Of a DNA stretch of 24,563 nt, positions 1 through 20,978 are shown piece by piece. The DNA comes from Patescibacteria group bacterium (GTDB taxonomy: Bacteria > Patescibacteriota > Patescibacteriia > Buchananbacterales > UBA6539): positions 1-24,563 of the forward strand of contig DATDWV010000062.1 of assembly GCA_035289505.1 (NCBI GenBank), given 5' to 3'. Under the pieces are notes generated by a model. It was not told where the DNA came from and ran no database searches. It saw only the letters and a list, made by a program, of their open reading frames with translations. Position 1 is the first letter of the stretch, and the number at the start of each line of letters is the position of its first letter. A program made the translations under genes and the position numbers.

Positions 1-1197
1 TTATTATCCAAAAAGTTTGAAGTCTCTGGTTTTGATATCAGTCAGGAAAAAATTAATCAGTTAAAACAAGGAATAGACCAGACCGGCGAAATAGAAAATT
101 TAGGTCAATATAAAATTAATTATTCCGATAATCCGGAAATCATCAGTCAAGCTAATTTTATCATTGCTTGCATTCCTACTCCGGTTGATGAAAATAAAAA
201 ACCGGACTTGAGTTTATTGGAAAAAGCTTCGGAAATAATCGGCCAAAATTTAAAACCCGGTGCTGTGGTTGTTTATGAAAGCACGGTTTATCCGGGCTGC
301 ACTGAAGAAATTTGTCTGCCGATTTTGGAAAAAAGCTCTGGCCTAAAATACGGCGTTGATTTTAAGTTAGGTTATTCACCGGAACGAGTCAACCCTGGGG
401 ATAAAATTCACACCATCGATAAAATTTTTAAAATTATTGCGGCCAGCGACGATGGAGCATTAAATCGTTTAAAAGAAGTCTATGGCCAAATTACTCAAGT
501 TTATCCGGTTTCCTCGATTAAAGTCGCGGAAGCCGCCAAAGTTATTGAAAATATTCAGCGTGATTTAAACATCGCCTTAGCCAATGAATTGGCTTTAATT
601 TTTGACCGCTTGGGTATCAATACCAAAGAGGTGATTGAGGCGGCGGGCACGAAATGGAATTTTCATAAATATTATCCGGGCTTGGTCGGCGGCCATTGCA
701 TCGGCGTGGATCCTTATTATCTAACCAGCAAAGCCGAGTCGGTCGGCTATAATCCAAAAATTATTTTAGCCGGACGCGGGGTCAATGAATCAATGACTGG
801 TTTTGTCGCCTCTAAATTAAAAGGCCGAAAAAAAGTTTTAATTATGGGTTTAACCTTTAAAGAAAACGTACCGGATATAAGAAACAGCAAAGCCAAAGAT
901 TTAGCTTTAACTCTAAAAGAGCAAGGCAGTATTATTTACGGCCATGATCCGTTTTTAAAAATTAAAGAAATTTCCGTTGATCATTTTAAAGTAGAATTGA
1001 TTAATGACTGGCCGCCCAAACAAAATTTTGACGCGATTGTTATGTTTAGTCCGCATCAAATTTTTAAAAATAATCAAAATTATTCATTGGAAAGTTTAAA
1101 AAAAATTTCTGAGCCAAACTCGATTTTATTTGATCTTAAAAGTTTTTACGACAAAACTCAAGCGGAGGGCTTAGGTTTTAAATATTTAACATTATAA
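1..1197 (+). CDS. Nucleotide-sugar dehydrogenase, UDP-N-acetylhexosamine 6-dehydrogenase type (WbpO/TviB-like); 5'-truncated by the window edge
   Basis: Frame 1 is open from base 1 (LLSKKFEVSGFDISQEK...IACIPTPVDENKKPDL), so the TTG at 208 in the ORF track is internal. Family motifs: YESTVYPG, GYSPER.NPGD, EAAKVIENIQRDLNIA, catalytic-Cys motif PGLVGGHCIGVDPYYL, GLTFKEN.PDIRNSK. Confidence 0.92.
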   Translation, partial: LLSKKFEVSGFDISQEKINQLKQGIDQTGEIENLGQYKINYSDNPEIISQANFIIACIPTPVDENKKPDLSLLEKASEIIGQNLKPGAVVVYESTVYPGCTEEICLPILEKSSGLKYGVDFKLGYSPERVNPGDKIHTIDKIFKIIAASDDGALNRLKEVYGQITQVYPVSSIKVAEAAKVIENIQRDLNIALANELALIFDRLGINTKEVIEAAGTKWNFHKYYPGLVGGHCIGVDPYYLTSKAESVGYNPKIILAGRGVNESMTGFVASKLKGRKKVLIMGLTFKENVPDIRNSKAKDLALTLKEQGSIIYGHDPFLKIKEISVDHFKVELINDWPPKQNFDAIVMFSPHQIFKNNQNYSLESLKKISEPNSILFDLKSFYDKTQAEGLGFKYLTL

Positions 1198-2342
1198 TGC
1201 GCGTTTTAATTTTTTCTTTAGCTTATTTGCCGTTTATCGGCGGCGCCGAATTGGCGGTGAAAGAAATTACCGATCGGATTTCTGGAATTTCCGCCAAAGG
1301 CGGACCAGCCTCTGGCTGGGAATTTGATTTAATCACCGTTAATTTAGACGGCAAACAAAAATCCCAAGAAAAAATTGGCAATGCTACGATTTATCGTTTA
1401 GGTCAAGGGAAATTGGTTAAATATTTTTTTCCTTGGATTGCGGCGAAAAAAGCCCAAGAATTACAACAACAAAAAAATTATCAGGCAATTTGGGCGATTA
1501 TGGCTAATCAAGCGGGTTTGGCCGCTTTATTTTTTAAACAAAAAAATCCCAAAATTAAATACATTTTGACTTTGCAGGAAGGGGACTCGTTAAAAAGAAT
1601 CTGGAGCCGGACGATTTTAATTCGTCCGCTTTACAGAAAGATTTATCAAAAAGCTGACGCGATTACCGCTATTAGCCATTTTTTGGCCAAGCGAGCGAAA
1701 AAATTCGGTTATCGAGGTAAAATTTCCATTGTCCCAAACGGCGTTGATTTAGAAAACTTTAAAAAGACTTTATCGGACACGGAGAAAGTTGAATTAAAAA
1801 AAGATTTAAACATCGGGGAACATCAAAAAGTTGTCGTGACGGTTTCCCGTTTGGTTCATAAAAACGGCGTTGATACGATTATTAAATCAATTAAAGATTT
1901 GCCGGTGAAACTTTTGATTTTAGGCGAAGGCAAACTAAAAATAAAATTTCAGGCCTTGGTCCAAGAAATCGGCGTTCGCGATAATGTTGTTTTTTTGGGG
2001 TATGTTAAACAAAAAGACATTCCAAAATATTTGGCCATTGCCGATGTCTTTGTCCGCTGTTCGCGCTCCGAAGGATTAGGTTCGGCTTTTTTGGAAGCGA
2101 TGGTGGCGGGCGTGCCGGTGATTGGCACTAAAGTCGGCGGTATTCCCGAATTTTTAAAAGACGGGGAAACCGGTTTATTCTGCGAAGTCAACAATCCCAG
2201 GGATTTGGCGGCAAAAATTAAATTAATTTTAAATGAGGAAAAATTACGGCAAAATTTAATCAAAAACGCCGCTTCTTTTGTCAATGAACGTTATGATTGG
2301 TCAAATATCAGCCGGCAAGCAAAAGAAATTTTTGAATTATGA
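1197..2342 (+). CDS. Glycosyltransferase family 4 (GT-B)
   Basis: N-terminal YLPFIGGAELAV; C-terminal E-x7-E motif SEGLGSAFLEAMVAGVPVIGTKVGGIPE; TAATG overlap with the upstream gene. Confidence 0.92.
   Translation: MRVLIFSLAYLPFIGGAELAVKEITDRISGISAKGGPASGWEFDLITVNLDGKQKSQEKIGNATIYRLGQGKLVKYFFPWIAAKKAQELQQQKNYQAIWAIMANQAGLAALFFKQKNPKIKYILTLQEGDSLKRIWSRTILIRPLYRKIYQKADAITAISHFLAKRAKKFGYRGKISIVPNGVDLENFKKTLSDTEKVELKKDLNIGEHQKVVVTVSRLVHKNGVDTIIKSIKDLPVKLLILGEGKLKIKFQALVQEIGVRDNVVFLGYVKQKDIPKYLAIADVFVRCSRSEGLGSAFLEAMVAGVPVIGTKVGGIPEFLKDGETGLFCEVNNPRDLAAKIKLILNEEKLRQNLIKNAASFVNERYDWSNISRQAKEIFEL
1290..1319. repeat. GC-rich tandem double hairpin (TCCGCC-AAA-GGCGGA + CCAGCC-TCT-GGCTGG) lying in frame in the GT4 gene and encoding SAKGGPASGW
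   Basis: Two abutting perfect 6-bp stems with 3-nt loops; 21 of 30 bases are G/C in an AT-rich gene; exactly 10 codons, starting on a codon boundary. Confidence 0.85.
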
Positions 2343-3481
2343 AAATTATTATTGCCGCGGAAATTTTTCCGCCAGACATTGGCGGCCCGGCGACTTACAG
2401 CCAAAACTTAACTACAGAATTACTTAAACGCGGCTTTGAAATTAAGTTAATTTGCTATAGCGATAAAAAATATTCTGACGATCCAGGATATATTTATCGG
2501 ATTGTTCGCCGTCGTTTAAAGCCAATACATTATTTCAATTATTATAGAAAATTAAAAAAATTGGCCCGTGATTGTGACGTTATTTATGCCATGGGGCCGG
2601 TCAGTTCGGGTAAACCGGCGCTTCAAGTGGCTAAAGAATTAAACAAGAAACTAGTTGTTAAGGTTGTTGGCGATTACGCTTGGGAGCGGGCCAGAAATTC
2701 CGGCAAGACTGATTTGCTTATTGATGATTTTCAGAAGAAAAATTTTTCCGGTAAAATTGGTGTGTTACAAAAAATCGAACGGCAAGTTTGCCAATCAGCT
2801 GACAAAGTCATTACGCCCAGTCAGTATCTGAAAAAAATCGTTATGGGTTGGGGAGTGGACGAAAATAAAGTTGAGGTTATTTATAATTCTTTTAACAAAG
2901 ATTTTCCCTCTGGCTCAATGATCCAGCCAACTGGTAAATTTAAGTTTATCATTTCGGTTGGTCGGCTGGTGAGCTGGAAAGGCTTTTCGCTCCTGATTAA
3001 GCTTATACCTGATTTAAAAAAGATTGACCCTTCTTTTAAATTAATAATTTTAGGTTCCGGTCCGCAAGAAGAAAAATTATTAGAAGAAGCGAGGAGTCTT
3101 AATTTATTAAGCTCTGAAGATGTAGTTATAATGAAGTCCGACTGGTTGGGCGTTATTAGTTATTTACGCCAAGCGTATATATTTGTCTTAAATACCGGCT
3201 ACGAAGGTTTGTCGCACACGATTTTAGAGGCTATGGCCACCGGCGTGCCAGTCGTTACCACTAATGTTGGTGGTAACCCGGAATTAATTAAAGACGGCGA
3301 AAATGGCTTGTTGGTTGAATATAATAATAAAGAACAACTCAAAGAAGCGATTTTAAAATTGTACCAAAACGAAGATTTAAGGAAAAAATTTATTGAAAAT
3401 TCAAAAAAAGTTTTAGAAAAATTTAGTTTTGCCAATATGATTAATCAAACCATTAATCTTTTTAATCAATTATCTAAATAA
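2339..3481 (+). CDS. Glycosyltransferase family 4 (GT-B)
   Basis: EIFPPDIGGPATY N-terminus; SVGRLVSWKG; YEGLSHTILEAMATGVPVVTTNVGGNPE; ATGA overlap with the upstream gene. Confidence 0.92.
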   Translation: MKIIIAAEIFPPDIGGPATYSQNLTTELLKRGFEIKLICYSDKKYSDDPGYIYRIVRRRLKPIHYFNYYRKLKKLARDCDVIYAMGPVSSGKPALQVAKELNKKLVVKVVGDYAWERARNSGKTDLLIDDFQKKNFSGKIGVLQKIERQVCQSADKVITPSQYLKKIVMGWGVDENKVEVIYNSFNKDFPSGSMIQPTGKFKFIISVGRLVSWKGFSLLIKLIPDLKKIDPSFKLIILGSGPQEEKLLEEARSLNLLSSEDVVIMKSDWLGVISYLRQAYIFVLNTGYEGLSHTILEAMATGVPVVTTNVGGNPELIKDGENGLLVEYNNKEQLKEAILKLYQNEDLRKKFIENSKKVLEKFSFANMINQTINLFNQLSK

Positions 3482-4468: not shown

Positions 4469-5605
4469 ATGGAAAAAAAATTGAAAGTTTTAATGATTTC
4501 AATTGATCGTGGCCTTTTAGGTAATTCGCCTTTAGGCGATGTGATTGAGCGACACAAGCGTTATGGTGAATTTTGCGAAAGTTTAGATATTATTGTTTGC
4601 GCCAAAAAAGGATTTAGCGAAAATCAAATTTCGGAGAAAGTTAAGGCAACACCTACCAATTCGTCATCTAAAATTAAATATGTCTTTGACGCCATTAAAA
4701 TTGGCAAGCGACTTTTTGGCCAAAAAACATATGATTTAATTGTCACTCAAGATCCGTTTTTGACCGGTTTGGCCGGCTATTTTTTGAAAAAGAGATTTAA
4801 AGCTAAATTATTGGTTCATTTTCACGGTGATTTTTGGCGAAATCCTTATTGGTTAAAAGAAAATAAATTCAATCGGTTATTTTTGTCGATCTCTCAATTT
4901 GTCGTTAAAAAGTCTGATGCGATTCGGGTGATGAGCCAAGGTCAGAAAGATAAAATGGTCAAAGCCGGAATTAGTGAAAATAAAATTAGAGTTATTTCAA
5001 CGCCGATTGATATTAATAAATTTCAGAATCAAGAATTAAGAATTAAGAATCCATCATCTAAAGAAAAAATAATTCTCCATGTTGGCCGCGATGATGATGT
5101 AAAAGACTATGACACTTTAACTAAAGCCGTTAGATTAGTTAGGAAAGAATTGCCGGGCGTGATATTTTGGCAGATTGGTTCAAAAAAGAAAATTATGGAG
5201 GCGGCTGATAAAATGAATTTGAAAGTTGATTTTCATCTAAGACTTGAAGGTTGGATGGATAGTAATTCGATAATAGAAAGGTATAAATTCTCAGACGTGG
5301 TTGTTTTATCTTCCACTTCCGAAAGTTTCGGCAAAGTTTTGGTGGAGGCTAATGCCTGCGACAAACCGGTGGTATCAACGACGACTACAGGCGCCAAAGA
5401 AATTATCCAAGACGGCTACAACGGTTTTTTAGTGCCAATTGGCGATGCCCAAGCTTTAGCCGAAAAAATTTTGTATTTATTAAATAATCCTGAAAAGGCC
5501 AAAGAGATGGGGGAGAATGGCAGAAAATTAGTTAAGGAAAGATTCAGCGATAACACCGAAAAAATCATTAATTTTTGGCAGGAGATTTGCGCAAATAGAA
5601 TATGA
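4469..5605 (+). CDS. Glycosyltransferase family 4 (GT-B)
   Basis: SESFGKVLVEANACDKPVVST...GAKEIIQDGYNGFLVPIGD; HVGR acceptor/donor-side motif. Confidence 0.92.
   Translation: MEKKLKVLMISIDRGLLGNSPLGDVIERHKRYGEFCESLDIIVCAKKGFSENQISEKVKATPTNSSSKIKYVFDAIKIGKRLFGQKTYDLIVTQDPFLTGLAGYFLKKRFKAKLLVHFHGDFWRNPYWLKENKFNRLFLSISQFVVKKSDAIRVMSQGQKDKMVKAGISENKIRVISTPIDINKFQNQELRIKNPSSKEKIILHVGRDDDVKDYDTLTKAVRLVRKELPGVIFWQIGSKKKIMEAADKMNLKVDFHLRLEGWMDSNSIIERYKFSDVVVLSSTSESFGKVLVEANACDKPVVSTTTTGAKEIIQDGYNGFLVPIGDAQALAEKILYLLNNPEKAKEMGENGRKLVKERFSDNTEKIINFWQEICANRI
5025..5052. repeat. Tandem heptamer repeat (AGAATCA AGAATTA AGAATTA AGAATCC) within the GT4 CDS
   Basis: Four adjacent 7-bp units read directly from the sequence; they encode QNQELRIKNP in the apparent linker between the two GT-B domains. 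Confidence 0.75.
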
Positions 5606-8948: not shown

Positions 8949-9857
8949 ATGAGTTTTAATAATTTTAGAGCAGAATTTTATAATTTTAAAAAAGCCGCCT
9001 TTGAATATCACCGGCCTTGGCCATATTTTTATTTGCGTTATTTTGTCGCGAGAAAAATTTTTAATTTAAAAAAAGAATTTAAAAATAATTTAGAATCAAA
9101 CAATTTATCGATTCATCTGTTGACTTGTCATCGCGATTTAAATTTATTAGTTTGGTCTTTGGCGAGTTTTTTTATCAATGCCAAAATTAGTGGTGAACTT
9201 TTTATTCATAATGACGGCACGCTCAGTCAAAAGGATTGTCAAATTATTAAAAAATTTTTTCCGCAAATAATTATCGTCACGTCAAAGGAATGCGAAAAAA
9301 AAATAGAAGAAAAGGCTTCGGATTTTTCCGAATCAAAAAATTTAAGAAAAAATTTTTTACTGCTTAAAAAATTAGTTGATCCTTATTTTTTTTCTTCAAA
9401 AGATAAAATTTTAATTATTGACAGCGATTTAATTTGGTTTCAAAGGCCAGAGGATTTAATCAGTCAAATTAAACAGGATAATCCCGATTCTCTAATGATG
9501 CACAGCGTTCAAGGCGGCGGCTGTCCGGTTTATTTTTCCAATGGTGAAAAGCTAGCAAAAGATTTGTCATTTTATAATTCCGGAATTGTTTTTTACCAAA
9601 AAGAAAATTTTGATTTAGCGCGGTTAAAAAATTATTTGTCTAAAATTGATCAAAAAGTTCATGCTAACAAGCATTTTATTGAGCAAGCCGGTTATGCTTA
9701 TTGTTTAAACAAATTAAAGCCTTTGCCCGAAGATTTTTATCAAATTAAAGGCAGTTTGAATAATCAAACCAAAGTCAAGCATTACACCAGCCCGCGCCGA
9801 TTTTTATTTTATCTTGAAGGCATTAATTATCTGAAAGATAAAATTTTAAAATCATGA
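8949..9857 (+). CDS. Putative GT-A-fold glycosyltransferase (GT8-like motifs), family unassigned
   Basis: DxD motif in LIIDSDLIWF, then NSGIVF, FIEQAG and KHY, in an order resembling GT8 (DxD...NSG...DQ...H); lies among glycosyltransferase genes. Confidence 0.55.
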   Translation: MSFNNFRAEFYNFKKAAFEYHRPWPYFYLRYFVARKIFNLKKEFKNNLESNNLSIHLLTCHRDLNLLVWSLASFFINAKISGELFIHNDGTLSQKDCQIIKKFFPQIIIVTSKECEKKIEEKASDFSESKNLRKNFLLLKKLVDPYFFSSKDKILIIDSDLIWFQRPEDLISQIKQDNPDSLMMHSVQGGGCPVYFSNGEKLAKDLSFYNSGIVFYQKENFDLARLKNYLSKIDQKVHANKHFIEQAGYAYCLNKLKPLPEDFYQIKGSLNNQTKVKHYTSPRRFLFYLEGINYLKDKILKS

Positions 9858-11909: not shown

Positions 11910-13076
11910 ATGAAGATTTCGTATTTTGCCAATATCCGTTTGCCCACCGAAAAAGCCCATGGCCGCCAAATTATGAAAATGGCGGAAAGTTTGGCTCAGG
12001 CCGGCGATGAATTGGAGTTAATCATTCCCAGTCGGCAAAATCCGAATTTTCAAAACACTAATCCTTTTCGCTATTATCAAATTAAAGAAACTTTTAAAAT
12101 TAAAAAAATAAATTGTTTTGACCCGGTTTTTCTTTTTGGTTTTCCCGCTGGTTTATATATCAAATTTCAAACTATTTTTTTTATTTTAAGTTTGACGGTT
12201 TATTTACTAATTAATCGAAGCAGACAAGATACCTTTTTTTACACCCGCGACGAGGCTTTATTACCCTTACTTTCAATTTTTTCCAAAAAAATCGTCTGGG
12301 AAGCGCATGCTTTGCCGAAAAAAATAAAATTTTTAAAGCCTTTTTTAAAGCGGGCGGCAAAATTTATCGTTTTAACCCAAAGTATTAAAAAAAATTTAAT
12401 CAGCTTGGGTTTAGCGGAAGAAAAAATTTTAGTTTCGCCTGATGCGGTTGATTTGGAAATTTTTGGCATTAGTCTAGACAAATCTCAAGCCAGAGAACAA
12501 TGGCAATTACCCCAAGATAAAATTATTTTAGGCTATACCGGCACGATTAAAACCAAGGGCATGGATAAAGGTTTAATTGATATTTTTCAGGCTTTAAAAA
12601 TTTTAAGCCAAAAAAGAAATGACTTAATTTTTATCGCCCTGGGCGGATTAGAAAGTGAAATCAGCGAATATCAAAAATTAGCGGAAAATTTTGGCGTGGC
12701 GGATTTTGTGAAATTACTTTCGCCGGTTGAGCAGAATAAATTAGCGGTTTTTCAGCAAGCCTGCGATATTTTACTGATGCCTTTTCCAAAAACCACGCAT
12801 TTTTCTTTTTACATGTCGCCTTTAAAAATGTTTGAATATTTGTCTTCGGGCCGGCCGATTATTGCCACTAATTTGCCAAGTATCAAAGAAATATTGGATA
12901 ATACTAATGCGATTTTGATTAAACCTGGTGATTTTCAAGATTTAGCAGAAAAAATTGAATTATTATTAAATAACCCCTCATTAGCCAATGATTTGGCACA
13001 AAAGGCAAAAACCATTTCATTGAATTACAGTTGGCAGAAAAGAGGAGAAAAAATTTATCAATTCTTATGTGGTTAG
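11910..13076 (+). CDS. Glycosyltransferase family 4 (GT-B)
   Basis: RLPTEKAHGRQIMKM; GYTGT; SPLKMFEYLSSGRPIIATNLPSIKE. Confidence 0.88.
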   Translation: MKISYFANIRLPTEKAHGRQIMKMAESLAQAGDELELIIPSRQNPNFQNTNPFRYYQIKETFKIKKINCFDPVFLFGFPAGLYIKFQTIFFILSLTVYLLINRSRQDTFFYTRDEALLPLLSIFSKKIVWEAHALPKKIKFLKPFLKRAAKFIVLTQSIKKNLISLGLAEEKILVSPDAVDLEIFGISLDKSQAREQWQLPQDKIILGYTGTIKTKGMDKGLIDIFQALKILSQKRNDLIFIALGGLESEISEYQKLAENFGVADFVKLLSPVEQNKLAVFQQACDILLMPFPKTTHFSFYMSPLKMFEYLSSGRPIIATNLPSIKEILDNTNAILIKPGDFQDLAEKIELLLNNPSLANDLAQKAKTISLNYSWQKRGEKIYQFLCG

Positions 13077-15934
13077 AAAAATTATTTTTAAAAATTAAAT
13101 TTCGGCTGGTTCAGCGCCATCGCTTGATTTTAATTATCATTTTATTTTTGATTTTAATTTTTTTCGCCGGCGTACCGCTGCTTTCATCAGAGTTAGGCAG
13201 TGCGGAGAAACGCGCTCAATGGCTTCGATCTTATCCCGTTTTAACTAAAATCATTCCTTTATATTGGGAAATAAGAAAAATTACTGATATTGTTTATTTG
13301 CCTTATTTTTTCAAAAAAGATCAAGTGCCGACCTATGAACTAATTATTCCATCTGATTCCAGAAAGAAAATGGACGACAGCCTGCCTAAAGGTTTTTCCA
13401 ATGTTATTTATACTAACAAAACATGGGCGCCGGCTGAATTTAAGTTTAACGGCAAAACTTATAATATTGAGGTTAGATATCGCGGACAAAATGCTGTTCA
13501 TTGGAATGCGCCAAAAAAATCATATCTGATAAAATTTGACAAAGACGATTTATTTAACGGTGCGAGGGAATTAAGTTTTATTATTGCTGATGATCGGTTT
13601 TTTGTCTTAGAAGAACTAAATAATTATCGGGCTGACAAATTAAGCCTTTTGCGCCCCAAAAGTGGTTATGCCAATTTGAAAATTAACGGCAAAAATAACG
13701 GTTTATATTTCACCATTGAAGGCTGGGCTGAAGAGATGCTGGCCAAATGGGAAGTTCCTGATCAGACCAATTTTTATGAGTTAGCCGAGCAAAATACAGA
13801 TAGTTTGGTAGCGGCTGATTATACCATTTGGGATAATCTTGACCGATGGGACCAGCTGGTGCGAGATCAGCGTTTTAATTACGGTCATTTTACGGAAATT
13901 TTTAAACTCCTTAGTTTGCTGAATCATGCGACGGACGAGGAATTTTACCAATCAATTTTTAGTTTAATTGATAAAGATAATTTTTATGCCTGGCAAATTC
14001 ATCAGGAATTGATTCACTCCAACCATCAAAATAATGACGTTAAATTATTATTTGACAATACGTCGGGAAAATTCTTTTTTGTCCCTTGGGACGTAGGTAA
14101 TACAAATCCTAGCAGTGAAATTGAGCTGTATAGCCGTTTGGCCAAGAGAATATTCACTAATCCGGTTTATTGGCATGAAAAAGATAAAATATTATATGAC
14201 TATGCCAATAACAAGGATAATTTAAAGGATGATTTGGATTTTTATGATAAAACCTATAATTTGATTAAGCCGTCGCTTTATAAAGATCGGATGAAAATTT
14301 ATACCAATCGTTGGGCCGATTCATTGATCATTAGCCGCCGCCAGGCTCTGATTGATGCTTTTGATAAAATCAAAGATCGCTACAAAAATAATTTAGCCTT
14401 TATTGACGTAGGAATAATTGATGATAACGCTAAAAAATTTGGCTTGAACAGCATCTTGGCTTTTATTGACGTTAATACCAAAAGTTACAGCGCTTTATGG
14501 TTAAAGGCCGTGGAAGCAGAGCTGGCTAACGGTCAAGCTCTGTCAGATTATAAGTTGTATTACGATGCTAATTCTAACCAAGAGCTTGATAATAATGATA
14601 AATTAGTAAAAGATTACAAAGATATTATTCTTTACACTCATAGAACCTTTGATTCAACGACGGAGGGCGGAAAATTGGAGTTAACCAAATATCGGTTTTA
14701 TCTAGTTAGCGATAAAATCAGCAGTGAAGATTTTTCTGACCAATTAAATGATTTCAAGGTCAATTTACAAAATGGTATTACCGGTGACGACATTAAAAAA
14801 AAGGAAATTAACATCAAAATAATCAACCAAGCGGTTTTTAAATATTTTGATAATATTTCTGATCTTAGCGGATTTGAGCGAGAAAATCCTTTTTTCGTGG
14901 TTGATCGACAGGCTAAAAGAATAGTTTTACCGCCCGGGACATATCAATTCAACAAAAATGTAATAGTACCAAAAGGTTTTACTTTAGATATAAACCCGGG
15001 CGTCACCATTTTAATGGCGCCAAGCGTATCAATTGTTAGCTACAGCAAGGTAATTGCCCAAGGTACGGCGGCCGCACCAATTAATATTTTTCCTCAAATT
15101 CCAAACCAGCCGTGGGGAACCTTTGGTGTTTTAAATACCGGCAACCAATTGAATATTTTTGAAAATTTTAATGTTGTTGGCGGCTCAGAAGCCTATGTTA
15201 ATGGCGTCTATATGTCGGGAATGGTTTCGGTCTATCATTCTGACATCAGCGTTAGAAATTCTCAATTTTCTAACGCCGCGGCTGACGATGGAATAAACGT
15301 CAAGTATGGCAAAGCTGCATTAACCAATAATCGGTTTATGAATAATTCAGCTGATGCTATTGATTACGATTTTATTAAGCAGGGACAGATTATCAGCAGT
15401 CAATTTATTAATAATGGCAATGATGGCGTTGATTTAAGCGGCTCGACTGTTTTGATCGCCAATAATCATTTTCAAAACTCCGGTGACAAATGCGTCAGCG
15501 TTGGCGAGAAGAGTTTAGAGACGGTAATTTACAACAATATTTTGGATGGTTGTAAAATTGGAGTAGAAATCAAAGATTTGTCTGACATATTGATTATCAA
15601 TAATGTGATAATTAATAATGAGATTGGGCTTAATGCCTATCAGAAAAAACCGGTCTTCGGCGGCGGTAAGGCCAAAATTTACAATAGTATCATTTGGGAT
15701 AATCAAAACGACGTTCAGACCGACCCACAGTCAGTTATTGCTATATTCAATAGTAATATCAACCGTGATGATTTGGATAATAATAATTTTAATACTCATC
15801 CTGAATTTGTTAATTTATCGGCCGGGGATTATCGGGTAGATTTGCCCCAGTACAAAAACGGCGGAGACAAGGGTGTTTTGGAGAAATATTTGGACCTGAA
15901 GCTTGATCAAGCGCCAGTTGGTTTAATAAAATAG
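13067..15934 (+). CDS. CotH-family kinase-like protein with an N-terminal membrane anchor and a C-terminal right-handed parallel beta-helix
   Basis: ATG 13067 is preferred over TTG 13031. Basic N-terminus plus LILIIILFLILIFFAGVPLL anchor. CotH motifs: VRYRG...KKSYLIKF, INGKNNGLYFTIE, FDNTSGKFFFVPWD. Beta-helix repeats (DDGINVK, ADAIDYD, NDGVDLSG, GDKCVSVGE, IIINNVIINNEIG) from ~14921. Confidence 0.82.
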   Translation: MWLEKLFLKIKFRLVQRHRLILIIILFLILIFFAGVPLLSSELGSAEKRAQWLRSYPVLTKIIPLYWEIRKITDIVYLPYFFKKDQVPTYELIIPSDSRKKMDDSLPKGFSNVIYTNKTWAPAEFKFNGKTYNIEVRYRGQNAVHWNAPKKSYLIKFDKDDLFNGARELSFIIADDRFFVLEELNNYRADKLSLLRPKSGYANLKINGKNNGLYFTIEGWAEEMLAKWEVPDQTNFYELAEQNTDSLVAADYTIWDNLDRWDQLVRDQRFNYGHFTEIFKLLSLLNHATDEEFYQSIFSLIDKDNFYAWQIHQELIHSNHQNNDVKLLFDNTSGKFFFVPWDVGNTNPSSEIELYSRLAKRIFTNPVYWHEKDKILYDYANNKDNLKDDLDFYDKTYNLIKPSLYKDRMKIYTNRWADSLIISRRQALIDAFDKIKDRYKNNLAFIDVGIIDDNAKKFGLNSILAFIDVNTKSYSALWLKAVEAELANGQALSDYKLYYDANSNQELDNNDKLVKDYKDIILYTHRTFDSTTEGGKLELTKYRFYLVSDKISSEDFSDQLNDFKVNLQNGITGDDIKKKEINIKIINQAVFKYFDNISDLSGFERENPFFVVDRQAKRIVLPPGTYQFNKNVIVPKGFTLDINPGVTILMAPSVSIVSYSKVIAQGTAAAPINIFPQIPNQPWGTFGVLNTGNQLNIFENFNVVGGSEAYVNGVYMSGMVSVYHSDISVRNSQFSNAAADDGINVKYGKAALTNNRFMNNSADAIDYDFIKQGQIISSQFINNGNDGVDLSGSTVLIANNHFQNSGDKCVSVGEKSLETVIYNNILDGCKIGVEIKDLSDILIINNVIINNEIGLNAYQKKPVFGGGKAKIYNSIIWDNQNDVQTDPQSVIAIFNSNINRDDLDNNNFNTHPEFVNLSAGDYRVDLPQYKNGGDKGVLEKYLDLKLDQAPVGLIK

Positions 15935-15937
15935 AAT

Positions 15938-17674
15938 ATGAATTTTAAGCGGTTTATAAAAAAAATAGATTATAAACTTTTTATTTATTCGGTGATATTT
16001 TTTATCGTATTGACTGTGGGGCTTTTATTCGTTTATCAGAATCGATTGACTTTGGTAAATAATAAAATTATTTACAATAAATACACAAGAGCTTTTTTGC
16101 CCGCTTATCATTTTATTAATCAGTTGATTTATAAATTACCTAATGTAGTATATTTGCCCCTGATGCGCAGTCATGTCGGCATTCCAGAATATAAAATTAT
16201 TATCGATCAAAAAAATTTAGAATTTTTAAATGACAACTTGCCTAAGCCGATATTTGTTGACGGGGTGCCGACTGGTTATGAAGAATTAGCCGATAAGTAC
16301 AAGCAGTCAGTTCCGGCCAAATTTGTTTACGAGGGAGAGGAGTATAATGTTCGCGTTGGTTACCGAGGGGATCATGAAAATCATTGGGCTTATGATGAAA
16401 AATCTTGGGAAGTAGAATTTGACAAAGACAAATTATTTAATGGAATTAAGGTGCTAAAACTAATTATTCCTTCAGGGAGAGATTATTTTTCTGAATATTT
16501 AAACAGCTATCGAGCTAAAAAATTTGGCTTAAAAATAACTGAGGCGAGTTTTGCTAAATTATCAGTCAACGATATCAGATACGGTGTGTATTATCAGTTT
16601 GAAGACTGGTCTAAGGAATTTTTAGAAAAAAATGAGCTACCCTCAGACGCTAATTTGTACGTGACCGATGACGCCGTGATTAATTTAGATGATTTAAATT
16701 CCGCGTATAACGATTCAGTATTTTGGAAAAAGAAAGCCGAAGATGCAACGTTTAATTTTGATAATTATAGCGAGATCAATTTTTTAATTAAAGCGATGGA
16801 CCAACCAAATTTTTCAGAAATTGTGCCTGACATTATTGATTTAGACAGCCTTTACTCTTGGCATACGCTTTCTATGTTAGCTGGCAGCCAGCATCAAACC
16901 GGTCGGGGGAATTCTCGTTTATACTTTAATAATACGAGCGGTAAGTTTGAGTTTATTCCCTGGGATATTAAGATAAATAATCTCACGGGTAGCCAAATAA
17001 TCGATAATCTTTTATTGACCAAAATTTTTAGCGATCCCGCTCGCCAGCTTGAACTCAATCAATTCCTTTGGCAGTATGTAAAAAATCCAGATAACCTGGC
17101 TGATGATTTAGCGGCCTATGATGAAAAATATAATCAATTAAAACCGGCTTTTTATCTTGATTGGAGAAAATTCCATAATAATTTTCGGTTTGACTCAGAG
17201 GTTAGAATTATTCGGAAGTTATACGAGGATAACTTTAATCATTTAGCGAATTTATTCAATCAAGACGCCTCAAAAGTTGAAGTCTTTTTTAATCCAAATA
17301 AATTGTTGTTGACCATTGATATAATGGTTGATAATTTTAGCGGTTTAAACGTGATCGGGATAATTTTGCCTCCAAAAACGCAAGGTCAGATTGAACTTTT
17401 TTATGATTCAGATCAAAATGGCGTTTTGTCAACTGCCGACAATGCATTAGCCGGGAAATTTGCTACTGCCGGAAATACTCAGGAGTTATCGGATTTTAGC
17501 CAATCCATTTATAGTCAAAGACAATACGATCCAGACGGCAAAATTAGCCGTTTGGTTCCTACGCGCCATTCTTTTTTTATTAAGTTTAATCGGCAACAAG
17601 CGGCAGACTTTGATCTTAATAAGTTAAAAGTTCAATTAAATAATGCAATCACCGGAAAATCATTAAATTATTAG
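15938..17674 (+). CDS. CotH-family kinase-like protein with an N-terminal membrane anchor (paralog of the upstream gene, no beta-helix)
   Basis: MNFKRFIKK plus LFIYSVIFFIVLTVGLLFV anchor. Motifs: VGYRG...EKSWEVEF, VNDIRYGVYYQFE, RLYFNNTSGKFEFIPWD. Confidence 0.82.
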   Translation: MNFKRFIKKIDYKLFIYSVIFFIVLTVGLLFVYQNRLTLVNNKIIYNKYTRAFLPAYHFINQLIYKLPNVVYLPLMRSHVGIPEYKIIIDQKNLEFLNDNLPKPIFVDGVPTGYEELADKYKQSVPAKFVYEGEEYNVRVGYRGDHENHWAYDEKSWEVEFDKDKLFNGIKVLKLIIPSGRDYFSEYLNSYRAKKFGLKITEASFAKLSVNDIRYGVYYQFEDWSKEFLEKNELPSDANLYVTDDAVINLDDLNSAYNDSVFWKKKAEDATFNFDNYSEINFLIKAMDQPNFSEIVPDIIDLDSLYSWHTLSMLAGSQHQTGRGNSRLYFNNTSGKFEFIPWDIKINNLTGSQIIDNLLLTKIFSDPARQLELNQFLWQYVKNPDNLADDLAAYDEKYNQLKPAFYLDWRKFHNNFRFDSEVRIIRKLYEDNFNHLANLFNQDASKVEVFFNPNKLLLTIDIMVDNFSGLNVIGIILPPKTQGQIELFYDSDQNGVLSTADNALAGKFATAGNTQELSDFSQSIYSQRQYDPDGKISRLVPTRHSFFIKFNRQQAADFDLNKLKVQLNNAITGKSLNY

Positions 17675-17721
17675 AGGGATTACTCGGTTTCATTTTCAGC
17701 TTATTATCTTTTTTATAAGAC

Positions 17722-17750
17722 TTTACAATTATTCCGTTAAATGGTAATCT
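17722..17750 (+). promoter_or_regulatory. Candidate sigma70-type promoter for the VTC-DUF4956-deacetylase-GNAT block
   Basis: TTTACA (17722-17727), 17-bp spacer, TAATCT (17745-17750) preceded by TG-n (extended -10), in the first of only two long intergenic gaps in the window. Confidence 0.4.
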
Positions 17751-17799
17751 ATATCCATTAAAATCCGGCTATTGATTTTATTATCAATTTTAATTATTA

Positions 17800-17843
17800 A
17801 TATTAATCTATTAATTTAGATTAAGCCCAGTTTAGATTAATAT
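17800..17843. repeat. Three copies of TAGATTAA (one inverted, two direct) immediately upstream of and overlapping the VTC start codon
   Basis: ATATTAATCTA (17800-17810) is the reverse complement of TAGATTAATAT (17833-17843). Its inner 8 nt also pair with TAGATTAA at 17817-17824. TTTAGATTAA is directly repeated at 17815 and 17831. Confidence 0.7.
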
Positions 17844-18594
17844 GGCAAAACCAGCATTACATTTTCAAAGATTTGAATTTAAATACTATTTACCAAAAAA
17901 TACCGCTAATAAATTAATTCCGGCTTTATTAAGCCATATGAGCTGGGATCCTTATATTAAAAATTCCAGTTATGATTTTTATCAGGTTAATAGTTTATAT
18001 TTTGATAGCCCGAATTATGGTTGTTTTTGGGACAAAGAAAGCGGTTTAGCCGATCGGAAAAAATTAAGACTGCGTTTTTATAACCAATTGTCCGATAGCG
18101 AAAGTCCGATTTTTTTGGAAGTTAAAAGGAAAAAAGACGCATTGGTTATTAAAGACCGAATTCCGTTGGAATTAAAAGATGCGGCCAACGGCGTTTTAGA
18201 TAGTAAATTGTCCAGTTTGGCAAAGCAGAATGAAAGCAATGATTTTTTAAAAGAATTGATTTGGTTTAAAAAGAGTAATTCTTTAAGACCAAAACTTTTC
18301 GTCACTTATAAACGCCAGGCTTTAATCGGCAAATTGGATAAGAAATTTCGGGTCACTTTTGATTATGACGTTAAAACCCAACTAATTAGTAGCTTGGTTC
18401 ATCCATTAAATAAATTAAAAGAAGTTTATCCCGAAGGCGTGGTTTTGGAATTAAAATATAATAACATTTTGCCCTTTTGGTTTCAAGAAATTATTCAGAA
18501 ATATCAATTGCAACGTTTAGCTTATTCAAAATATTGTAATTCATTACGCCGGGTTTTGCCCCAGCTTGATGATCATAATTATTCAGTAATTTAA
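17842..18594 (+). CDS. VTC-domain (polyphosphate polymerase domain, CYTH/triphosphate-tunnel fold) protein
   Basis: RFEFKY (ExK), SLYFDS, KLRLRFY, FLEVKRK, YKRQA, RVTFD, VLELKY and YSKY: the motif series of the Vtc4-like catalytic domain, without SPX or TM domains. Confidence 0.9.
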   Translation: MAKPALHFQRFEFKYYLPKNTANKLIPALLSHMSWDPYIKNSSYDFYQVNSLYFDSPNYGCFWDKESGLADRKKLRLRFYNQLSDSESPIFLEVKRKKDALVIKDRIPLELKDAANGVLDSKLSSLAKQNESNDFLKELIWFKKSNSLRPKLFVTYKRQALIGKLDKKFRVTFDYDVKTQLISSLVHPLNKLKEVYPEGVVLELKYNNILPFWFQEIIQKYQLQRLAYSKYCNSLRRVLPQLDDHNYSVI

Positions 18595-18603
18595 TAAAAT
18601 TTT

Positions 18604-19290
18604 ATGTTTGAAACATTATTCCAAGTGACTCCGAATACTGGGTCATTAAGTTTAATTCACATTCTCATTACTTTAGTTTTGTCTTTAATCCTTTCTTTAA
18701 TTATCGCTTGGATTTATAAAACCACTCACCGCGGCATTTCTTATTCCCAATCTTTTGTTTTTACCTTGGTCTTAATTGGGGTTTTAATTTCAGTGATTAT
18801 GATGATTATTGGCAATAGCTTAGCCATTGCTTTTGGCGCCTTTGGCGCTTTTTCTTTAATTCGTTTTCGCACCGCAATTAAAGACGCCAAAGATATCGCT
18901 TTTATTTTGTTAGTCGTGGCTATGGGTTTATCCGTTGGCACGAGAAATTATTTAATCGCCGTTTTAACCACAATTTTTTGCGCCTCGGTAATTTATATTT
19001 TAACTAAGATTAATTTTGGTTCAATTAGAAAATACGACTATTTATTGAGTTTTTTGGCGGATTCGCAAAAATTTAATGTGGAAAATCTGCGTTCAGTTTT
19101 TGCCGAATTTTTGAAATATGACAATTTATTGAATGTTTCTGCCAAAGAAAACGGCCGGATTTTAAATTACACTTTTAACATTAAATTTATTAAAGCGGCG
19201 GAAATTGAAAAATTTATTAATAAGTTAAATCAATTAGAAGGAATTTCCGACATTGATGTCATCAGCGCCAAAAATGACATTGAATATTAA
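18604..19290 (+). CDS. DUF4956 family membrane protein
   Basis: Several TM helices with GNSLAIAFGAFGAFSLIRFRTAIKDAKD and MGLSVG, followed by a soluble C-terminal domain with an ACT-like alternating pattern; adjacent to the VTC gene. Confidence 0.88.
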   Translation: MFETLFQVTPNTGSLSLIHILITLVLSLILSLIIAWIYKTTHRGISYSQSFVFTLVLIGVLISVIMMIIGNSLAIAFGAFGAFSLIRFRTAIKDAKDIAFILLVVAMGLSVGTRNYLIAVLTTIFCASVIYILTKINFGSIRKYDYLLSFLADSQKFNVENLRSVFAEFLKYDNLLNVSAKENGRILNYTFNIKFIKAAEIEKFINKLNQLEGISDIDVISAKNDIEY

Positions 19291-20072
19291 TGGGCTTTAT
19301 TAAAAATTTTATTTATTTCTTAATTATTATTCTGGACAGGATATGGCCCAAGAAAGCCATTCCTGTTTTGTTATATCATTCAATTAGTGATGATGGTAGC
19401 CGTTTATCGGTTAATAAGAAAAATTTTGAAAAACAGTTGAATTTTTTAAGTAAAAATGGTTACCAGTCGATGGGGCCAGATGAACTTTATCAATGCTTGA
19501 ACCAGGGCCAGGTGCCAAATAAAAAAATTATTATTACCTTTGATGATGGTTATCAGGATAATTACACGCAAGCTCTTCCAATATTAAAAAAGTATAATTT
19601 TTCGGCAATAATTTTTATCGCGACAAAATTTATTGGTCAAAAAGCCAGTTTTGCGACTGATAAAATTAATCAGGATAAAAAAATTTTAGACTTTAACGAA
19701 ATCAAAGATTTAGCCGAAGAGGGGATAATTATTAGCAATCACTTTCATTCTCATTTGCCCTTGACTGGATTAAATAAAGAACAAATTACTAATGAATATC
19801 ACACCGCTCAGAATATTTTAAAAAATTTTAATCATCGGAATATTCATCCGGAAATTGTCGCCTATCCGAAAAATCGCGTCAACCAAGAGATTATAAATTG
19901 TTTAAAGAACCTTAACGTCTTACTTGGCTTCAGCGGCAGCAATAAAGCGATTAATAAAAGTGACTTTCGTTTAAATTTAAGCCGCATTGAAATTTATCAA
20001 TCAGATTCCATCTTAAAATTTTCCGCCAAATTAACGGCTTATTATTCTCTTTTCAAAATTAAAAAATTATGA
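19290..20072 (+). CDS. Polysaccharide deacetylase (CE4/NodB domain, IcaB/PgaB-like)
   Basis: LLYHSI, ITFDDGY (motif 1), NHFHSH (metal-binding His pair), AYP, LSRIEI; TAATG overlap with DUF4956. Confidence 0.88.
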   Translation: MGFIKNFIYFLIIILDRIWPKKAIPVLLYHSISDDGSRLSVNKKNFEKQLNFLSKNGYQSMGPDELYQCLNQGQVPNKKIIITFDDGYQDNYTQALPILKKYNFSAIIFIATKFIGQKASFATDKINQDKKILDFNEIKDLAEEGIIISNHFHSHLPLTGLNKEQITNEYHTAQNILKNFNHRNIHPEIVAYPKNRVNQEIINCLKNLNVLLGFSGSNKAINKSDFRLNLSRIEIYQSDSILKFSAKLTAYYSLFKIKKL

Positions 20073-20812
20073 TTTTTGAAAAGCGGGTGCTTTGGTTTAA
20101 AACGATCAGATATGCTTTAGAACCCTGGCCCGATCTAGAAAAATTAAAAAAAAATTACGCGGCAATTTATTTGGTTAGTTATGAAAAAAAAGATTTGCCC
20201 GGTTTTTCTGTTAAAATTAAGGAAACGCCGATTATTTATCTCAACAGAAAAATTGAGGAGGTTTTCAATAGTTTTAATGAAACCACCAGAAATGAAATCA
20301 GGCGAACTTTTGACGATAAAATTCCCGGCTTAAAAATTATTGCTGACGATCAGAATTTAGACGCTAATTATCAATTAAGTAAAAAGTTTGAATACCAGCA
20401 GGGGAGAGTGCCGGAAAAAATTTCAATGTATCGCGGCTGCCGCTTATTTTCCGCTTATTTAGACGGGGAGATAATTTCCAGCATCATTTGTTACGATAAT
20501 AATCAAATTTTGCGCGCCAAAGCGATTTGTTCTAAAAGATTAACTGTTGAAGACAGGGAGACTTACAAAATTATTTCTTATGCCACGCGCCGCTTGATTT
20601 ATGAAGCTTGCCAGTGGGGGATTAAAAATAATTATCAATGTTTTGATTTAGGCTCAGTTAATTTTGCCAAGGAAAATTTAGCCCAGTTTAAATTAAGTTT
20701 TACCAAGGATTTAGTTACAGAATACACGTATACTTATAAAAGCCAATGGTTTGAACTTTTGGCCAGTGGGGTTTTTATAAAAAAAATACTAAAAAAGCTG
20801 CTTAAGCTTTAG
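20069..20812 (+). CDS. FemAB/GNAT-like acyl- or aminoacyl-transferase domain protein
   Basis: IYLNRKIEEVFNSFNETTRNEIRR, YEACQWGIKNNYQCFDLGSV and LAQFKLSF resemble the FemAB-type/BioF2-like GNAT pattern; ATGA overlap with the upstream gene. Confidence 0.6.
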   Translation: MIFEKRVLWFKTIRYALEPWPDLEKLKKNYAAIYLVSYEKKDLPGFSVKIKETPIIYLNRKIEEVFNSFNETTRNEIRRTFDDKIPGLKIIADDQNLDANYQLSKKFEYQQGRVPEKISMYRGCRLFSAYLDGEIISSIICYDNNQILRAKAICSKRLTVEDRETYKIISYATRRLIYEACQWGIKNNYQCFDLGSVNFAKENLAQFKLSFTKDLVTEYTYTYKSQWFELLASGVFIKKILKKLLKL

Positions 20813-20845
20813 CTATCATTTTTTTTCGTGGATTATTTAGAATAA

Positions 20846-20876
20846 CTTAATTTTTGCTAAATTAAGCTATTTTTTT
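20846..20876 (+). terminator. Possible weak intrinsic terminator
   Basis: CTTAATTT-ttgct-AAATTAAG 8-bp stem (20846-20866), followed 3 nt later by T7 (20870-20876). The stem is AT-rich, so weak. Confidence 0.3.
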
Positions 20877-20882
20877 ATTCAC

Positions 20883-20922
20883 TTTGATATCTATTGACAC
20901 CTAGTGATACTTAAAGATATAA
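20883..20922 (+). repeat. Four imperfect direct repeats with a 10-bp period over the promoter
   Basis: tttGAtAtct / attGAcAcct / agtGAtActt / aaaGAtAtaa at 20883, 20893, 20903 and 20913. Confidence 0.6.
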
Positions 20923-20923
20923 T
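20894..20923 (+). promoter_or_regulatory. Consensus sigma70 promoter upstream of the HTH gene
   Basis: Exact TTGACA (20894-20899) and exact TATAAT (20918-20923) with an 18-bp spacer. A second TATAAT lies at 20962-20967. Confidence 0.75.
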
Positions 20924-20978
20924 ATTAATATTGAAATTTCTTAATTAATTCTCTATTTTACTATAATTAAAGGTCAAT

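What the first reader, a model, noticed from the sequence alone, without database searches (positions are those of the whole stretch)
1290..1319. GC-rich double-hairpin element inserted in frame in a glycosyltransferase gene
Seen: TCCGCC-AAA-GGCGGA immediately followed by CCAGCC-TCT-GGCTGG. These are two 15-mers of identical architecture (xCyGCC-NNN-GGCy'Gx') with fully complementary stems despite differing arm sequences, 70% GC, exactly 10 codons (SAKGGPASGW). Deleting them gives EITDRISGI-EFDLIT, which reads as a compact normal GT4 helix-to-strand junction. Established precedent: REP elements and Rickettsia palindromic elements, which sit in frame within genes. Inference: this is a miniature mobile or amplifiable palindromic repeat tolerated in protein loops. 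I recall similar SAKGG/SASGG-type peptide insertions in unrelated CPR proteins, which would indicate a poorly characterised genome-wide repeat family with an unknown mobiliser (e.g. HUH/RAYT-type).
Basis: partly seen in the sequence, partly recalled or inferred. Interest (0 to 1): 0.72.

Follow-up and report, generated by a model that had tools for sequence, protein, structure and literature searches.

The report
Tiny in-frame double-hairpin mobile repeat
A 30-base GC-rich double hairpin sits precisely in frame in a sugar-transferase gene of an ultra-small (Patescibacteria) bacterium; it is one copy of a widely dispersed family of miniature palindromic repeats that are gained and lost quickly and are read through as floppy 10-residue loops in essential proteins.

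Summary
Window 1290-1304 and 1305-1319 are two perfect 6-3-6 hairpins (70% GC), in phase 0 of an intact GT4 gene (1197-2342), read as SAKGGPASGW.

Most of 115 orthologs lack exactly these 10 residues (empty site ATT|GAT, no target duplication). AlphaFold puts them in a low-confidence loop between helix 1 and strand 2.

It is a repeat family, an inverted doublet of a 15-nt unit (YCNGCC-N3-GGCNGR):
- The same genome has copies in TrmD, IMPDH and LeuRS, and in a tRNA-Glu fragment.
- 27 of 41 related genomes have copies (up to 20), with zero control hits.
- Four metagenomes hold it in hundreds of contexts.

Turnover is fast. The IMPDH, LeuRS and TrmD copies are absent from the congener, which carries a second element nested inside the GT copy.

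Junctions are TT|GA-like. Genic copies are strongly biased to phase 0.

The mobiliser is unknown. A RAYT-like Y1 gene exists, but the REPtron flank test failed.

The kind is known (Rickettsia palindromic elements, intragenic REPs, cyanobacterial SDRs). This scan has already found similar in-frame hairpin repeats on other Patescibacteria DNA.

The parts
1290..1304 (+). Hairpin unit 1 (stem TCCGCC/GGCGGA, loop AAA); codons S-A-K-G-G
   Evidence: Sequence read directly; pattern match with 0 expected by chance; folds as a hairpin as RNA and as DNA.
1305..1319 (+). Hairpin unit 2 (stem CCAGCC/GGCTGG, loop TCT); codons P-A-S-G-W. It is the inverted partner of unit 1: purine-rich loop first, pyrimidine-rich loop second, a layout kept under reverse complement
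   Evidence: The same layout is seen in the copies listed.
1288..1321 (+). Insertion junctions: TT just 5' of the element and GA just 3'. The empty orthologous site reads ATT|GAT. No target-site duplication
   Evidence: Filled versus empty DNA at the GT site. Flank logo over 116 copies: position -2 is T in 102, -1 is T in 89 or C in 19, and T is nearly excluded at +1 and +2. Metagenome contigs diverge at 1286/1288 and at 1319-1322. The clean 30-nt LeuRS indel also has no duplication.
1197..2342 (+). Host gene: intact GT4-family glycosyltransferase, 381 aa. The insert is residues 32-41, between helix 16-28 and strand 42-48
   Evidence: ORF; Pfam; 3,785 homologs, typical ortholog length 372 aa; AlphaFold2 mean pLDDT 90.6 with pLDDT below 50 at residues 31-37.

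Best explanation
The 30 bases are one copy of a dispersed family of miniature, gene-less palindromic DNA repeats. Each copy is an inverted doublet of a 15-nt GC-rich hairpin unit (YCNGCC-N3-GGCNGR).

Shown:
- The element is a precise insertion without target duplication at a TT|GA junction, in the codons of a surface loop of a GT4 gene.
- Family members sit in unrelated housekeeping genes, in tRNA-fragment T-loops and in intergenic DNA of this genome, of most relatives and of other phyla.
- Copies differ between congeneric genomes, and copies nest inside one another.
- Genic copies are strongly enriched in the phase that encodes Ser/Pro-Ala-x-Gly-Gly twice.

Inferred:
- The element is, or recently was, non-autonomous mobile DNA that is copied into T-rich, T-loop-like TT|GA sites. 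It probably moves as single-stranded DNA folded into its two hairpins, through an enzyme supplied in trans.
- A Y1/HUH RAYT-like transposase is only a weak candidate, about 25-30%.
- Filled alleles may also spread between lineages by homologous recombination.
- Selection then removes most genic insertions. It keeps those in loops and in phase 0, where the ribosome reads the element through as a small flexible 10-residue loop. This outcome is largely the same in either orientation because the unit is a codon-symmetric palindrome.
- In this gene the insert is most likely near-neutral.
For: - **Precise insertion.** Alignments of orthologs show the insert is absent from most. DNA of filled and empty sites shows no duplication.
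- **Loop location.** The model places the insert in a low-confidence loop.
- **Family within the genome.** Searches list the copies; Pfam names the hosts as TrmD, IMPDH and LeuRS; one copy lies in the T-loop of a partial tRNA-Glu duplicate.
- **Relatives.** 27 of 41 genomes carry doublets, up to 20 copies, with 0 hits for the reversed control pattern.
- **Cross-phylum spread.** The hits include contigs of 160-650 kb labelled Omnitrophota, Planctomycetales and Verrucomicrobia.
- **Metagenomes.** Summed contig depth is about 12,000-21,000 over 1288-1311 against about 5-25 in most flanking bins, and the loose ends are unrelated to one another.
- **Turnover.** The IMPDH and LeuRS copies are in G000 only; they are absent from congener G001 and from outgroups G006 and G021. 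The TrmD copy is absent from G001. A nested second element lies inside the GT copy of G001/P0004.
- **Patchy on gene trees.** On the GT tree the insert needs 7 changes, at least 4 of them forced by well-supported branches. On the TrmD tree, one clade of insert-bearing alleles is rejected (AU p = 1e-4).
- **Decay.** Decayed copies exist in G025 TrmD and in P0100 and P0119.
- **Stem covariation.** Positions 3 and 13 are Watson-Crick paired in 19 of 22 units in G000, where the pattern left them free.
- **Phase bias.** 35 of 51 confidently genic copies are in phase 0. All clearly genic G021 copies are in phase 0. In G000, 10 of 13 genic units are in phase 0.
- **Named hosts elsewhere.** DnaJ (four tested), MiaA, HisRS, CCA-adding enzyme, TsaD and PolA.
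Against: - No transposition event, excision product or empty/filled polymorphism was seen. The reads available were contigs only.
- No mobiliser is identified. The Y1 gene of G000 and 18 of 19 Y1 gene neighbourhoods examined lack these hairpins. Seven genomes have the element without a detectable Y1 gene.
- The same site is filled in orthologs that are only 51-63% identical, with 29-30 of 30 bases the same. This could reflect an old insert under structural constraint rather than repeated insertion.
- Insert-bearing TrmD alleles share a derived flank, and the window and P0004 are 88-97% identical around the insert. Both point to allele spread by recombination rather than fresh transposition at those sites.
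- Translation of the insert is inferred from the intact frame, not observed.
- Copies in orthologous genes are not independent, so the phase and orientation p-values overstate the case.
Confidence: 0.78

Rival explanations
1. An old, vertically inherited insert kept for a nucleic-acid-level function. The double hairpin would be a conserved RNA or DNA signal, for example a translation pause, an RNase site or a protein-binding site, acquired once in each host gene and later lost from many lineages.
For: The 30 nt are 29-30/30 identical in GT orthologs whose proteins are 51-63% identical and whose flanking synonymous sites have diverged. One change (CCA to CCG) keeps a G.U pair. Stems covary. The window's copy is shared with its sister P0004/G001.
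Against: The same element lies in unrelated genes, in intergenic DNA and in tRNA fragments. The IMPDH and LeuRS copies are absent from the congener and from outgroups, so they are recent gains. There are nested copies, decayed copies and hundreds of contexts per metagenome. No Rfam family matches the element on the contigs searched.
Confidence: 0.1
2. A recombination-driven 'molecular drive', like DNA uptake sequences. The hairpin would be favoured by the DNA-uptake or recombination machinery of these naturally DNA-scavenging bacteria, so alleles that carry it spread between lineages by homologous replacement rather than by transposition.
For: Insert-bearing TrmD alleles of non-sister genomes share the insert together with a derived flank (DS..YFDYGI), while the rest of the gene follows taxonomy. 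DNA identity between the window and P0004 is raised around the insert. Frame-biased occurrence inside genes is also known for uptake sequences (general knowledge, not tested here).
Against: Homologous replacement cannot place the same 30 nt into unrelated genes of one genome, into one another, or into other phyla. Classical uptake sequences arise by point mutation, not as exact 30-nt indels.
Confidence: 0.08
3. The element is not translated. It would be excised from the transcript, or bypassed by the ribosome, as are the GC-rich hairpin 'byp' inserts of a yeast mitochondrion or the phage T4 gene 60 gap (recalled from memory).
For: It is a GC-rich hairpin insert in an AT-rich gene, and copies also occur in loops of tRNA-like sequences.
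Against: The strong phase-0 bias and the benign Ser/Ala/Gly coding would be unnecessary if the insert were skipped. There is no stop codon after the upstream codon, and no matching take-off and landing codons (ATT before, GAA after). Cutting out the 30 nt does not restore a complete tRNA.
Confidence: 0.04
4. A chance palindrome or an assembly artefact.
For: None beyond the short length.
Against: 0 expected in shuffles. Independent assemblies from different studies carry it at the same codon. There were 0 reversed-pattern control hits in 41 genomes.
Confidence: 0.01

Closest known systems
Rickettsia palindromic elements (RPE; Ogata et al. 2000, as summarised in PMC10969869)
   Same: Palindromic repeats inserted in frame into many unrelated housekeeping genes, read through as extra peptide segments judged compatible with the fold, with no transposase of their own.
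   Different: RPEs are about 100-150 bp, belong to one alphaproteobacterial genus and carry a CGTC end tag (PMC3733652). This element is 30 nt, has no such tag, and occurs across Patescibacteria and other phyla.
REP / REPIN elements with RAYT transposases (PMC3116915; intragenic REPs in PMC3733652)
   Same: A short palindromic unit occurring mostly as an inverted doublet that can fold either as two small hairpins ('clover') or as one long hairpin. Copies insert into or next to one another. REPs and REP dimers inside ORFs have been reported. CGTC-type REPs likewise lack a dedicated transposase.
   Different: REPINs are mainly extragenic, have a spacer between the two REPs, carry a GTAG tag, and cluster beside their RAYT gene. 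Here the units abut with no spacer, there is no tag, about 44% of the copies with distinct flanks are genic (51 of 116), and the Y1 genes are not flanked by the element.
Small dispersed repeats (SDR) of heterocyst-forming cyanobacteria (Elhai et al. 2008, Genome Res 18:1484; title seen as reference 43 of PMC3116915; content recalled from memory because the paper is not held)
   Same: Very small (21-27 nt) dispersed repeats with a hairpin supported by compensatory changes, nested insertions, embedding in short tandem repeats, and no identified mobiliser.
   Different: A different sequence and host range (as I recall, confined to one cyanobacterial group). Systematic in-frame occupation of essential genes is not their hallmark. 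I could not compare sequences.
Mitochondrial GC clusters and double-hairpin elements of fungi (Paquin et al. 2000, recalled from memory; the term is used in papers listed)
   Same: GC-rich two-hairpin mini-elements scattered in an AT-rich small genome, sometimes inside genes.
   Different: They are organellar and unrelated in sequence. The mechanism is equally unknown.
IS200/IS605-derived miniature elements (PATEs) moved by Y1 HUH transposases
   Same: Hairpin-defined ends, insertion next to a short specific target without duplication, seamless presence/absence, and a Y1 gene present in the genome.
   Different: No left or right end asymmetry or guide sequence is recognisable in 30 nt. There is no linkage to the Y1 genes, and no biochemical evidence.

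Membership tests
REPIN / REP-RAYT system | Short palindromic unit repeated many times in the genome | tested here: met
   22 perfect units and 5 doublets in 746 kb; up to 20 doublets in relatives.
REPIN / REP-RAYT system | Units organised as inverted doublets able to form one long or two short hairpins | tested here: met
   Adjacent units have the purine-rich loop first and the pyrimidine-rich loop second, a layout kept under reverse complement. Some copies are perfect 30-nt palindromes. Both the two-hairpin fold and a long-hairpin centroid are predicted.
REPIN / REP-RAYT system | GTAG (or CGTC) tetranucleotide tag at one end | tested here: not met
   The element begins TCCGCC and ends GGCTGG. 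The flanks are TT and GA. There is no GTAG or CGTC.
REPIN / REP-RAYT system | Predominantly extragenic location | tested here: not met
   4 of 5 doublets in G000 are in ORFs. 51 of 116 copies elsewhere are confidently genic.
REPIN / REP-RAYT system | The RAYT gene is immediately flanked by its REP/REPIN cluster (REPtron) | tested here: not met
   There is no YCNGCC hairpin within about 1 kb of the G000 Y1 gene, nor of 17 of 18 Y1 genes in five relatives; the one exception has a lone unit 330 nt upstream.
REPIN / REP-RAYT system | Co-occurrence of element and RAYT across genomes | tested here: inconclusive
   20 genomes have both, 7 the element only, 4 the Y1 gene only, 10 neither. Odds ratio 7.1, Fisher p = 0.008, Spearman 0.50, not corrected for relatedness.
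Rickettsia palindromic elements | In-frame insertion in unrelated protein genes, leaving the ORF intact | tested here: met
   GT4, TrmD, IMPDH and LeuRS here; DnaJ, MiaA, HisRS, CCA-adding enzyme, TsaD and PolA elsewhere.
Rickettsia palindromic elements | Element of about 100-150 bp encoding a conserved peptide of 30-50 aa; sequence homology to RPE-1 to RPE-10 | tested here: not met
   The element is 30 nt and encodes 10 aa. Homology to RPE sequences was not compared.
MITE (classical) | Terminal inverted repeats plus a target-site duplication | tested here: not met
   The whole element is an inverted repeat, but filled versus empty sites show no duplication.
IS200/IS605-type single-strand transposition (works-like claim) | Insertion beside a short specific target, no duplication, seamless empty site | tested here: met
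   TT|GA-like junction in 116 copies; clean 30-nt indels.
IS200/IS605-type single-strand transposition (works-like claim) | Binding and cleavage of the hairpin by a Y1 HUH transposase | not testable with these tools
   This needs biochemistry. The candidate gene is the 192-aa ORF at L017 1444-2022.
GT4 glycosyltransferase (host gene) | GT-B fold with Glyco_transf_4 N-domain and Glycos_transf_1 C-domain | tested here: met
   Pfam hits; confident model with alternating strand and helix elements.

The most novel reading that the evidence does not exclude
This 30-nt doublet would be among the smallest mobile DNA units known. It would be actively moving across bacterial phyla through an unrecognised trans-acting enzyme that targets T-loop-like TT|GA sites (tRNA T-loops, Gly-Phe-Asp-Phe codons), and it would systematically remodel surface loops of essential proteins (DnaJ, TrmD, aminoacyl-tRNA synthetases, TsaD) in ultra-small bacteria.
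Probability: 0.35. Interest if true: 0.85.

Novelty: new variant of a known kind. Interest (0 to 1): 0.62.

Why it matters
If these elements are truly mobile, they push down the size limit of transposable DNA. They would also give a concrete source for the many unexplained short insertions in Patescibacteria (CPR) proteins.

They matter in practice too. They break metagenome assemblies: contigs end at the element. They can mislead alignments and phylogenies of marker genes, and they inflate apparent protein novelty.

The TT|GA, T-loop-like target and the fast turnover between congeners make the mobiliser question directly testable. The insert in this particular gene is probably near-neutral.

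Tried and rejected
- **tRNA insertion idea.** Many intergenic copies have T-loop or D-loop-like flanks, but cutting out the 30 nt never gave ARAGORN a tRNA spanning the cut. The flanks turned out to be partial duplicates of a neighbouring intact tRNA.
- **Rfam** at gathering thresholds on six element-bearing contigs found only a tRNA.
- **REPtron test** was negative: the Y1 genes are not flanked by the element.
- **Expression.** No RNA holder was listed for this stretch.
- **Population polymorphism.** Only contigs were available. No contig joined across an empty site and no deletion form was listed, so nothing can be said either way.
- **Local recombination tract** between the window and P0004: identity is raised (88-97%) around the insert, but the N-terminus is also the most conserved part of the gene, so I do not rely on it.
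- **Viral vector.** Only one of 2.9 million viral contigs holds the window's stem pair.
- **Literature.** Searches combining candidate phyla radiation or Patescibacteria with palindromic, in-frame, REP or RAYT gave nothing relevant.
- **Failed step.** A first regular-expression attempt to find TrmD N-termini was too strict and was replaced by BLAST plus MAFFT.

Full report
**1. The observation**

The window reads TCCGCC-AAA-GGCGGA at 1290-1304 and CCAGCC-TCT-GGCTGG at 1305-1319. These are two perfect 6-bp stems with 3-nt loops, 21 of 30 bases G or C, in a window that averages about 35% GC.

The element starts exactly 31 codons into the 381-aa ORF 1197-2342 and reads SAKGGPASGW. The ORF is a GT4-type glycosyltransferase. 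Folded as RNA or DNA in a 71-nt context, the two hairpins form as drawn. An alternative long hairpin appears as the RNA centroid.

**2. It is a precise insertion in a loop**

The protein has 3,785 database homologs, annotated mostly as Candidatus Buchananbacteria or Patescibacteria. The typical ortholog is 372 aa. In an alignment of 115 orthologs, about 103 read ...TDRI-SGI-DFD... with nothing at the site.

At the DNA level the empty site is ATT|GAT TTT and the filled site is ATT|30 nt|GAA TTT, with no duplicated target. An AlphaFold2 model (mean pLDDT 90.6) puts residues 32-41 between helix 16-28 and strand 42-48, with pLDDT below 50 at residues 31-37.

**3. It is a repeat family**

- **This genome.** The window is contig C62 of a 746-kb, 122-contig genome. 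Four of the five lie in long ORFs, all in the same phase: the GT4 gene, TrmD (SAKGGSASGG), IMPDH (PAKGGSASGG) and LeuRS (PAPGGSAFGG, opposite orientation). The fifth lies in the T-loop of a partial second copy of the 3' end of tRNA-Glu, 21 nt downstream of the intact gene.
- **Why orientation matters little.** The unit NCC-GCC-NNN-GGC-GGN is a palindrome in codon register. Both orientations therefore encode Ser/Pro-Ala-x-Gly-Gly. The purine-loop-then-pyrimidine-loop layout survives reverse complementation, so the 30-mer is an inverted doublet of one unit.
- **Relatives.** 27 of 41 related genomes carry such doublets, up to 20 copies, with zero hits for the reversed control pattern. Loop and stem flavours appear lineage-specific.
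- **Other phyla.** The hits span many Patescibacteria classes and also contigs of 160-650 kb labelled Omnitrophota, Planctomycetales and Verrucomicrobia.
- **Metagenomes.** In four soil and groundwater metagenomes, summed contig depth jumps from about 5-25 in most flanking bins to about 12,000-21,000 exactly over the element. The loose ends are unrelated to one another and begin at 1286/1288 and at 1319-1322.
- **Stem covariation.** Positions left free by the pattern are nearly always complementary: 19 of 22 units in G000.

**4. Turnover**

Congener G001 has proteins 82-84% identical to G000's at the three sites below.
- It lacks the TrmD, IMPDH and LeuRS copies. Outgroups G006 and G021 also lack the IMPDH and LeuRS copies, so parsimony makes those gains in the G000 lineage.
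- G001 shares the GT copy but carries a second 30-nt doublet nested inside hairpin 2, read in another phase as QPKADAPLAQ.
- At a RadA-like (DNA repair) site, G001 has a doublet where G000 has a single 16-nt hairpin.

Other GT orthologs carry a 93-nt palindrome nested in hairpin 1 (P0022) or a 39-nt hairpin next to the element (P0063).

On a GT tree built without the site columns, the insert sits at 10 tips and needs 7 changes, at least 4 of them forced by well-supported branches. The window's protein is sister to P0004.

On a TrmD tree built without the N-terminus, the four insert-bearing alleles are not one clade (AU p = 1e-4). G000 is sister to the empty G001. Decayed copies exist in G025 TrmD and in P0100 and P0119.

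**5. Target and selection**

Over 116 copies with distinct flanks:
- position -2 is T in 102;
- position -1 is T in 89 or C in 19;
- position +1 is G, C or A, and position +2 is A or G;
- T is almost excluded at +1 and +2.

T-loop sequences (GGTT|CGA, GGTTC|GA) and Gly-Phe|Asp-Phe codons fit this junction. The DnaJ G/F region is hit repeatedly, as are MiaA, HisRS, CCA-adding enzyme, TsaD and PolA.

Of 51 confidently genic copies, 35 are in phase 0, and 32 of those share one orientation. All clearly genic copies in G021 are in phase 0. These copies include orthologous sites, so the p-values overstate independence.

**6. Mechanism**

What is shown: precise, duplication-free insertion at TT|GA-like sites; dispersal to unrelated sites and phyla; nesting; rapid gain and loss; and a coding-phase filter.

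What is inferred: movement as folded single-stranded DNA through a trans-acting enzyme. G000 has one RAYT/IS200-like Y1 gene. Presence of the element and of Y1 genes co-varies across 41 genomes (odds ratio 7.1, uncorrected for relatedness). But 18 of 19 Y1 gene neighbourhoods lack the hairpins, and seven genomes have the element without a detectable Y1 gene. The defining REPtron feature is therefore not met, and I give the Y1 candidate about 25-30%.

The shared derived flank in insert-bearing TrmD alleles suggests that filled alleles also move by homologous recombination.

**7. Comparison with what is known, and novelty**

In-frame palindromic repeats are known from Rickettsia (PMC10969869). 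REPs and REP dimers inside ORFs, and REPs without a dedicated transposase, are known from several phyla (PMC3733652). REPINs share the inverted-doublet geometry and the two alternative folds (PMC3116915). Cyanobacterial SDRs share the very small size and the nesting (Elhai 2008, recalled from memory, paper not held).

My searches found no paper that describes this for Patescibacteria. Earlier agents of this scan have repeatedly reported in-frame GC-rich hairpin mini-repeats on other Patescibacteria DNA, some also with cross-phylum spread.

I therefore rate this a new variant of a known kind. It is real, well supported and biologically interesting, but its mover is unidentified.

Noticed in passing
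G000 genome-wide, e.g. L005 (C48) 140-300, L007 (C108) 2700-2800, L006 (C22) 750-850: A second, larger repeat family of 74-145 nt. The outer arms gtcattgcgag.../...ctcgcaatgac enclose two or three inner hairpins (TCCCGC-N4-GCGGGA, a gaagcaatc...gattgcttc stem, TCCGCC-N4-GGCGGA), giving a cloverleaf-like nested palindrome. There are 86 arm sites and 31 paired elements (0.4% of the genome), 7 of them inside ORFs of 150 aa or more, including LeuRS. One inner hairpin shares its stem with the 15-nt unit.
   Followed up: partly
L001 (C115) 85-243 minus strand; also L091, L154, L141, L147, L095, L076: In several phyla the doublet sits in the T-loop or D-loop of a short partial duplicate of a tRNA end, lying 20-70 nt from the intact tRNA gene. 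I do not know why such duplicates accompany the element. They may be harmless remnants that tolerate a preferred target, or the insertion process may itself duplicate flanks.
   Followed up: partly
G000 C60 about 5060-5130; G001 loci L204, L207, L208: Hairpin cores flanked by short direct repeats of the caaatcccaaat type, read as KSQ(IL)...KSQN. Three G001 copies share them (one intergenic, one in a 327-aa ORF resembling an rRNA methyltransferase by eye, one in a RadA-like ORF). At the RadA site, G000 and G001 carry different cores between similar flanks.
   Followed up: partly
L008 (C42) 9405-9433 and L009 (C86) 3106-3134: Two identical intergenic copies of a 29-nt variant (CCAGCC-GGA-GGCTGG overlapping by one base with GTCGCC-TCT-GGCGAC), with similar flanks (taat|...|aagt.aatcaa).
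   Followed up: no
L017 about 960-1040 (G000 C3, FolC-like ORF 19-1401): The FolC-like protein contains a stretch (…TRSTGSPLGKFEVTLNKAERSRSTLSGTEG…) that overlaps an inverted repeat at 986-1020. It is possibly another in-frame palindromic insert.
   Followed up: no
L013 (P0022 gene) and L014 (P0063 gene), N-terminal 200 nt: Other palindromic modules use the same GT site: a 93-nt palindrome nested after TCCGCC of hairpin 1, and a 39-nt hairpin inserted just upstream of the doublet.
   Followed up: no
L043, L047, L066, L075, L097, L119, L142, L149, L155 (Candidatus Moanabacter MAG): At least ten copies with identical flanks (ggtttaaggttc|...|caggtttcgggt) in a 53-55% GC Verrucomicrobia MAG. There the doublet is part of a larger repeat.
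   Followed up: no
window 2369-2385: CCGCC-AGACATT-GGCGG in the next GT4 gene encodes the FPPDIGGP motif that I recall as common at this point in GT4 enzymes. It looks like a chance palindrome in a conserved motif, not a family member.
   Followed up: no
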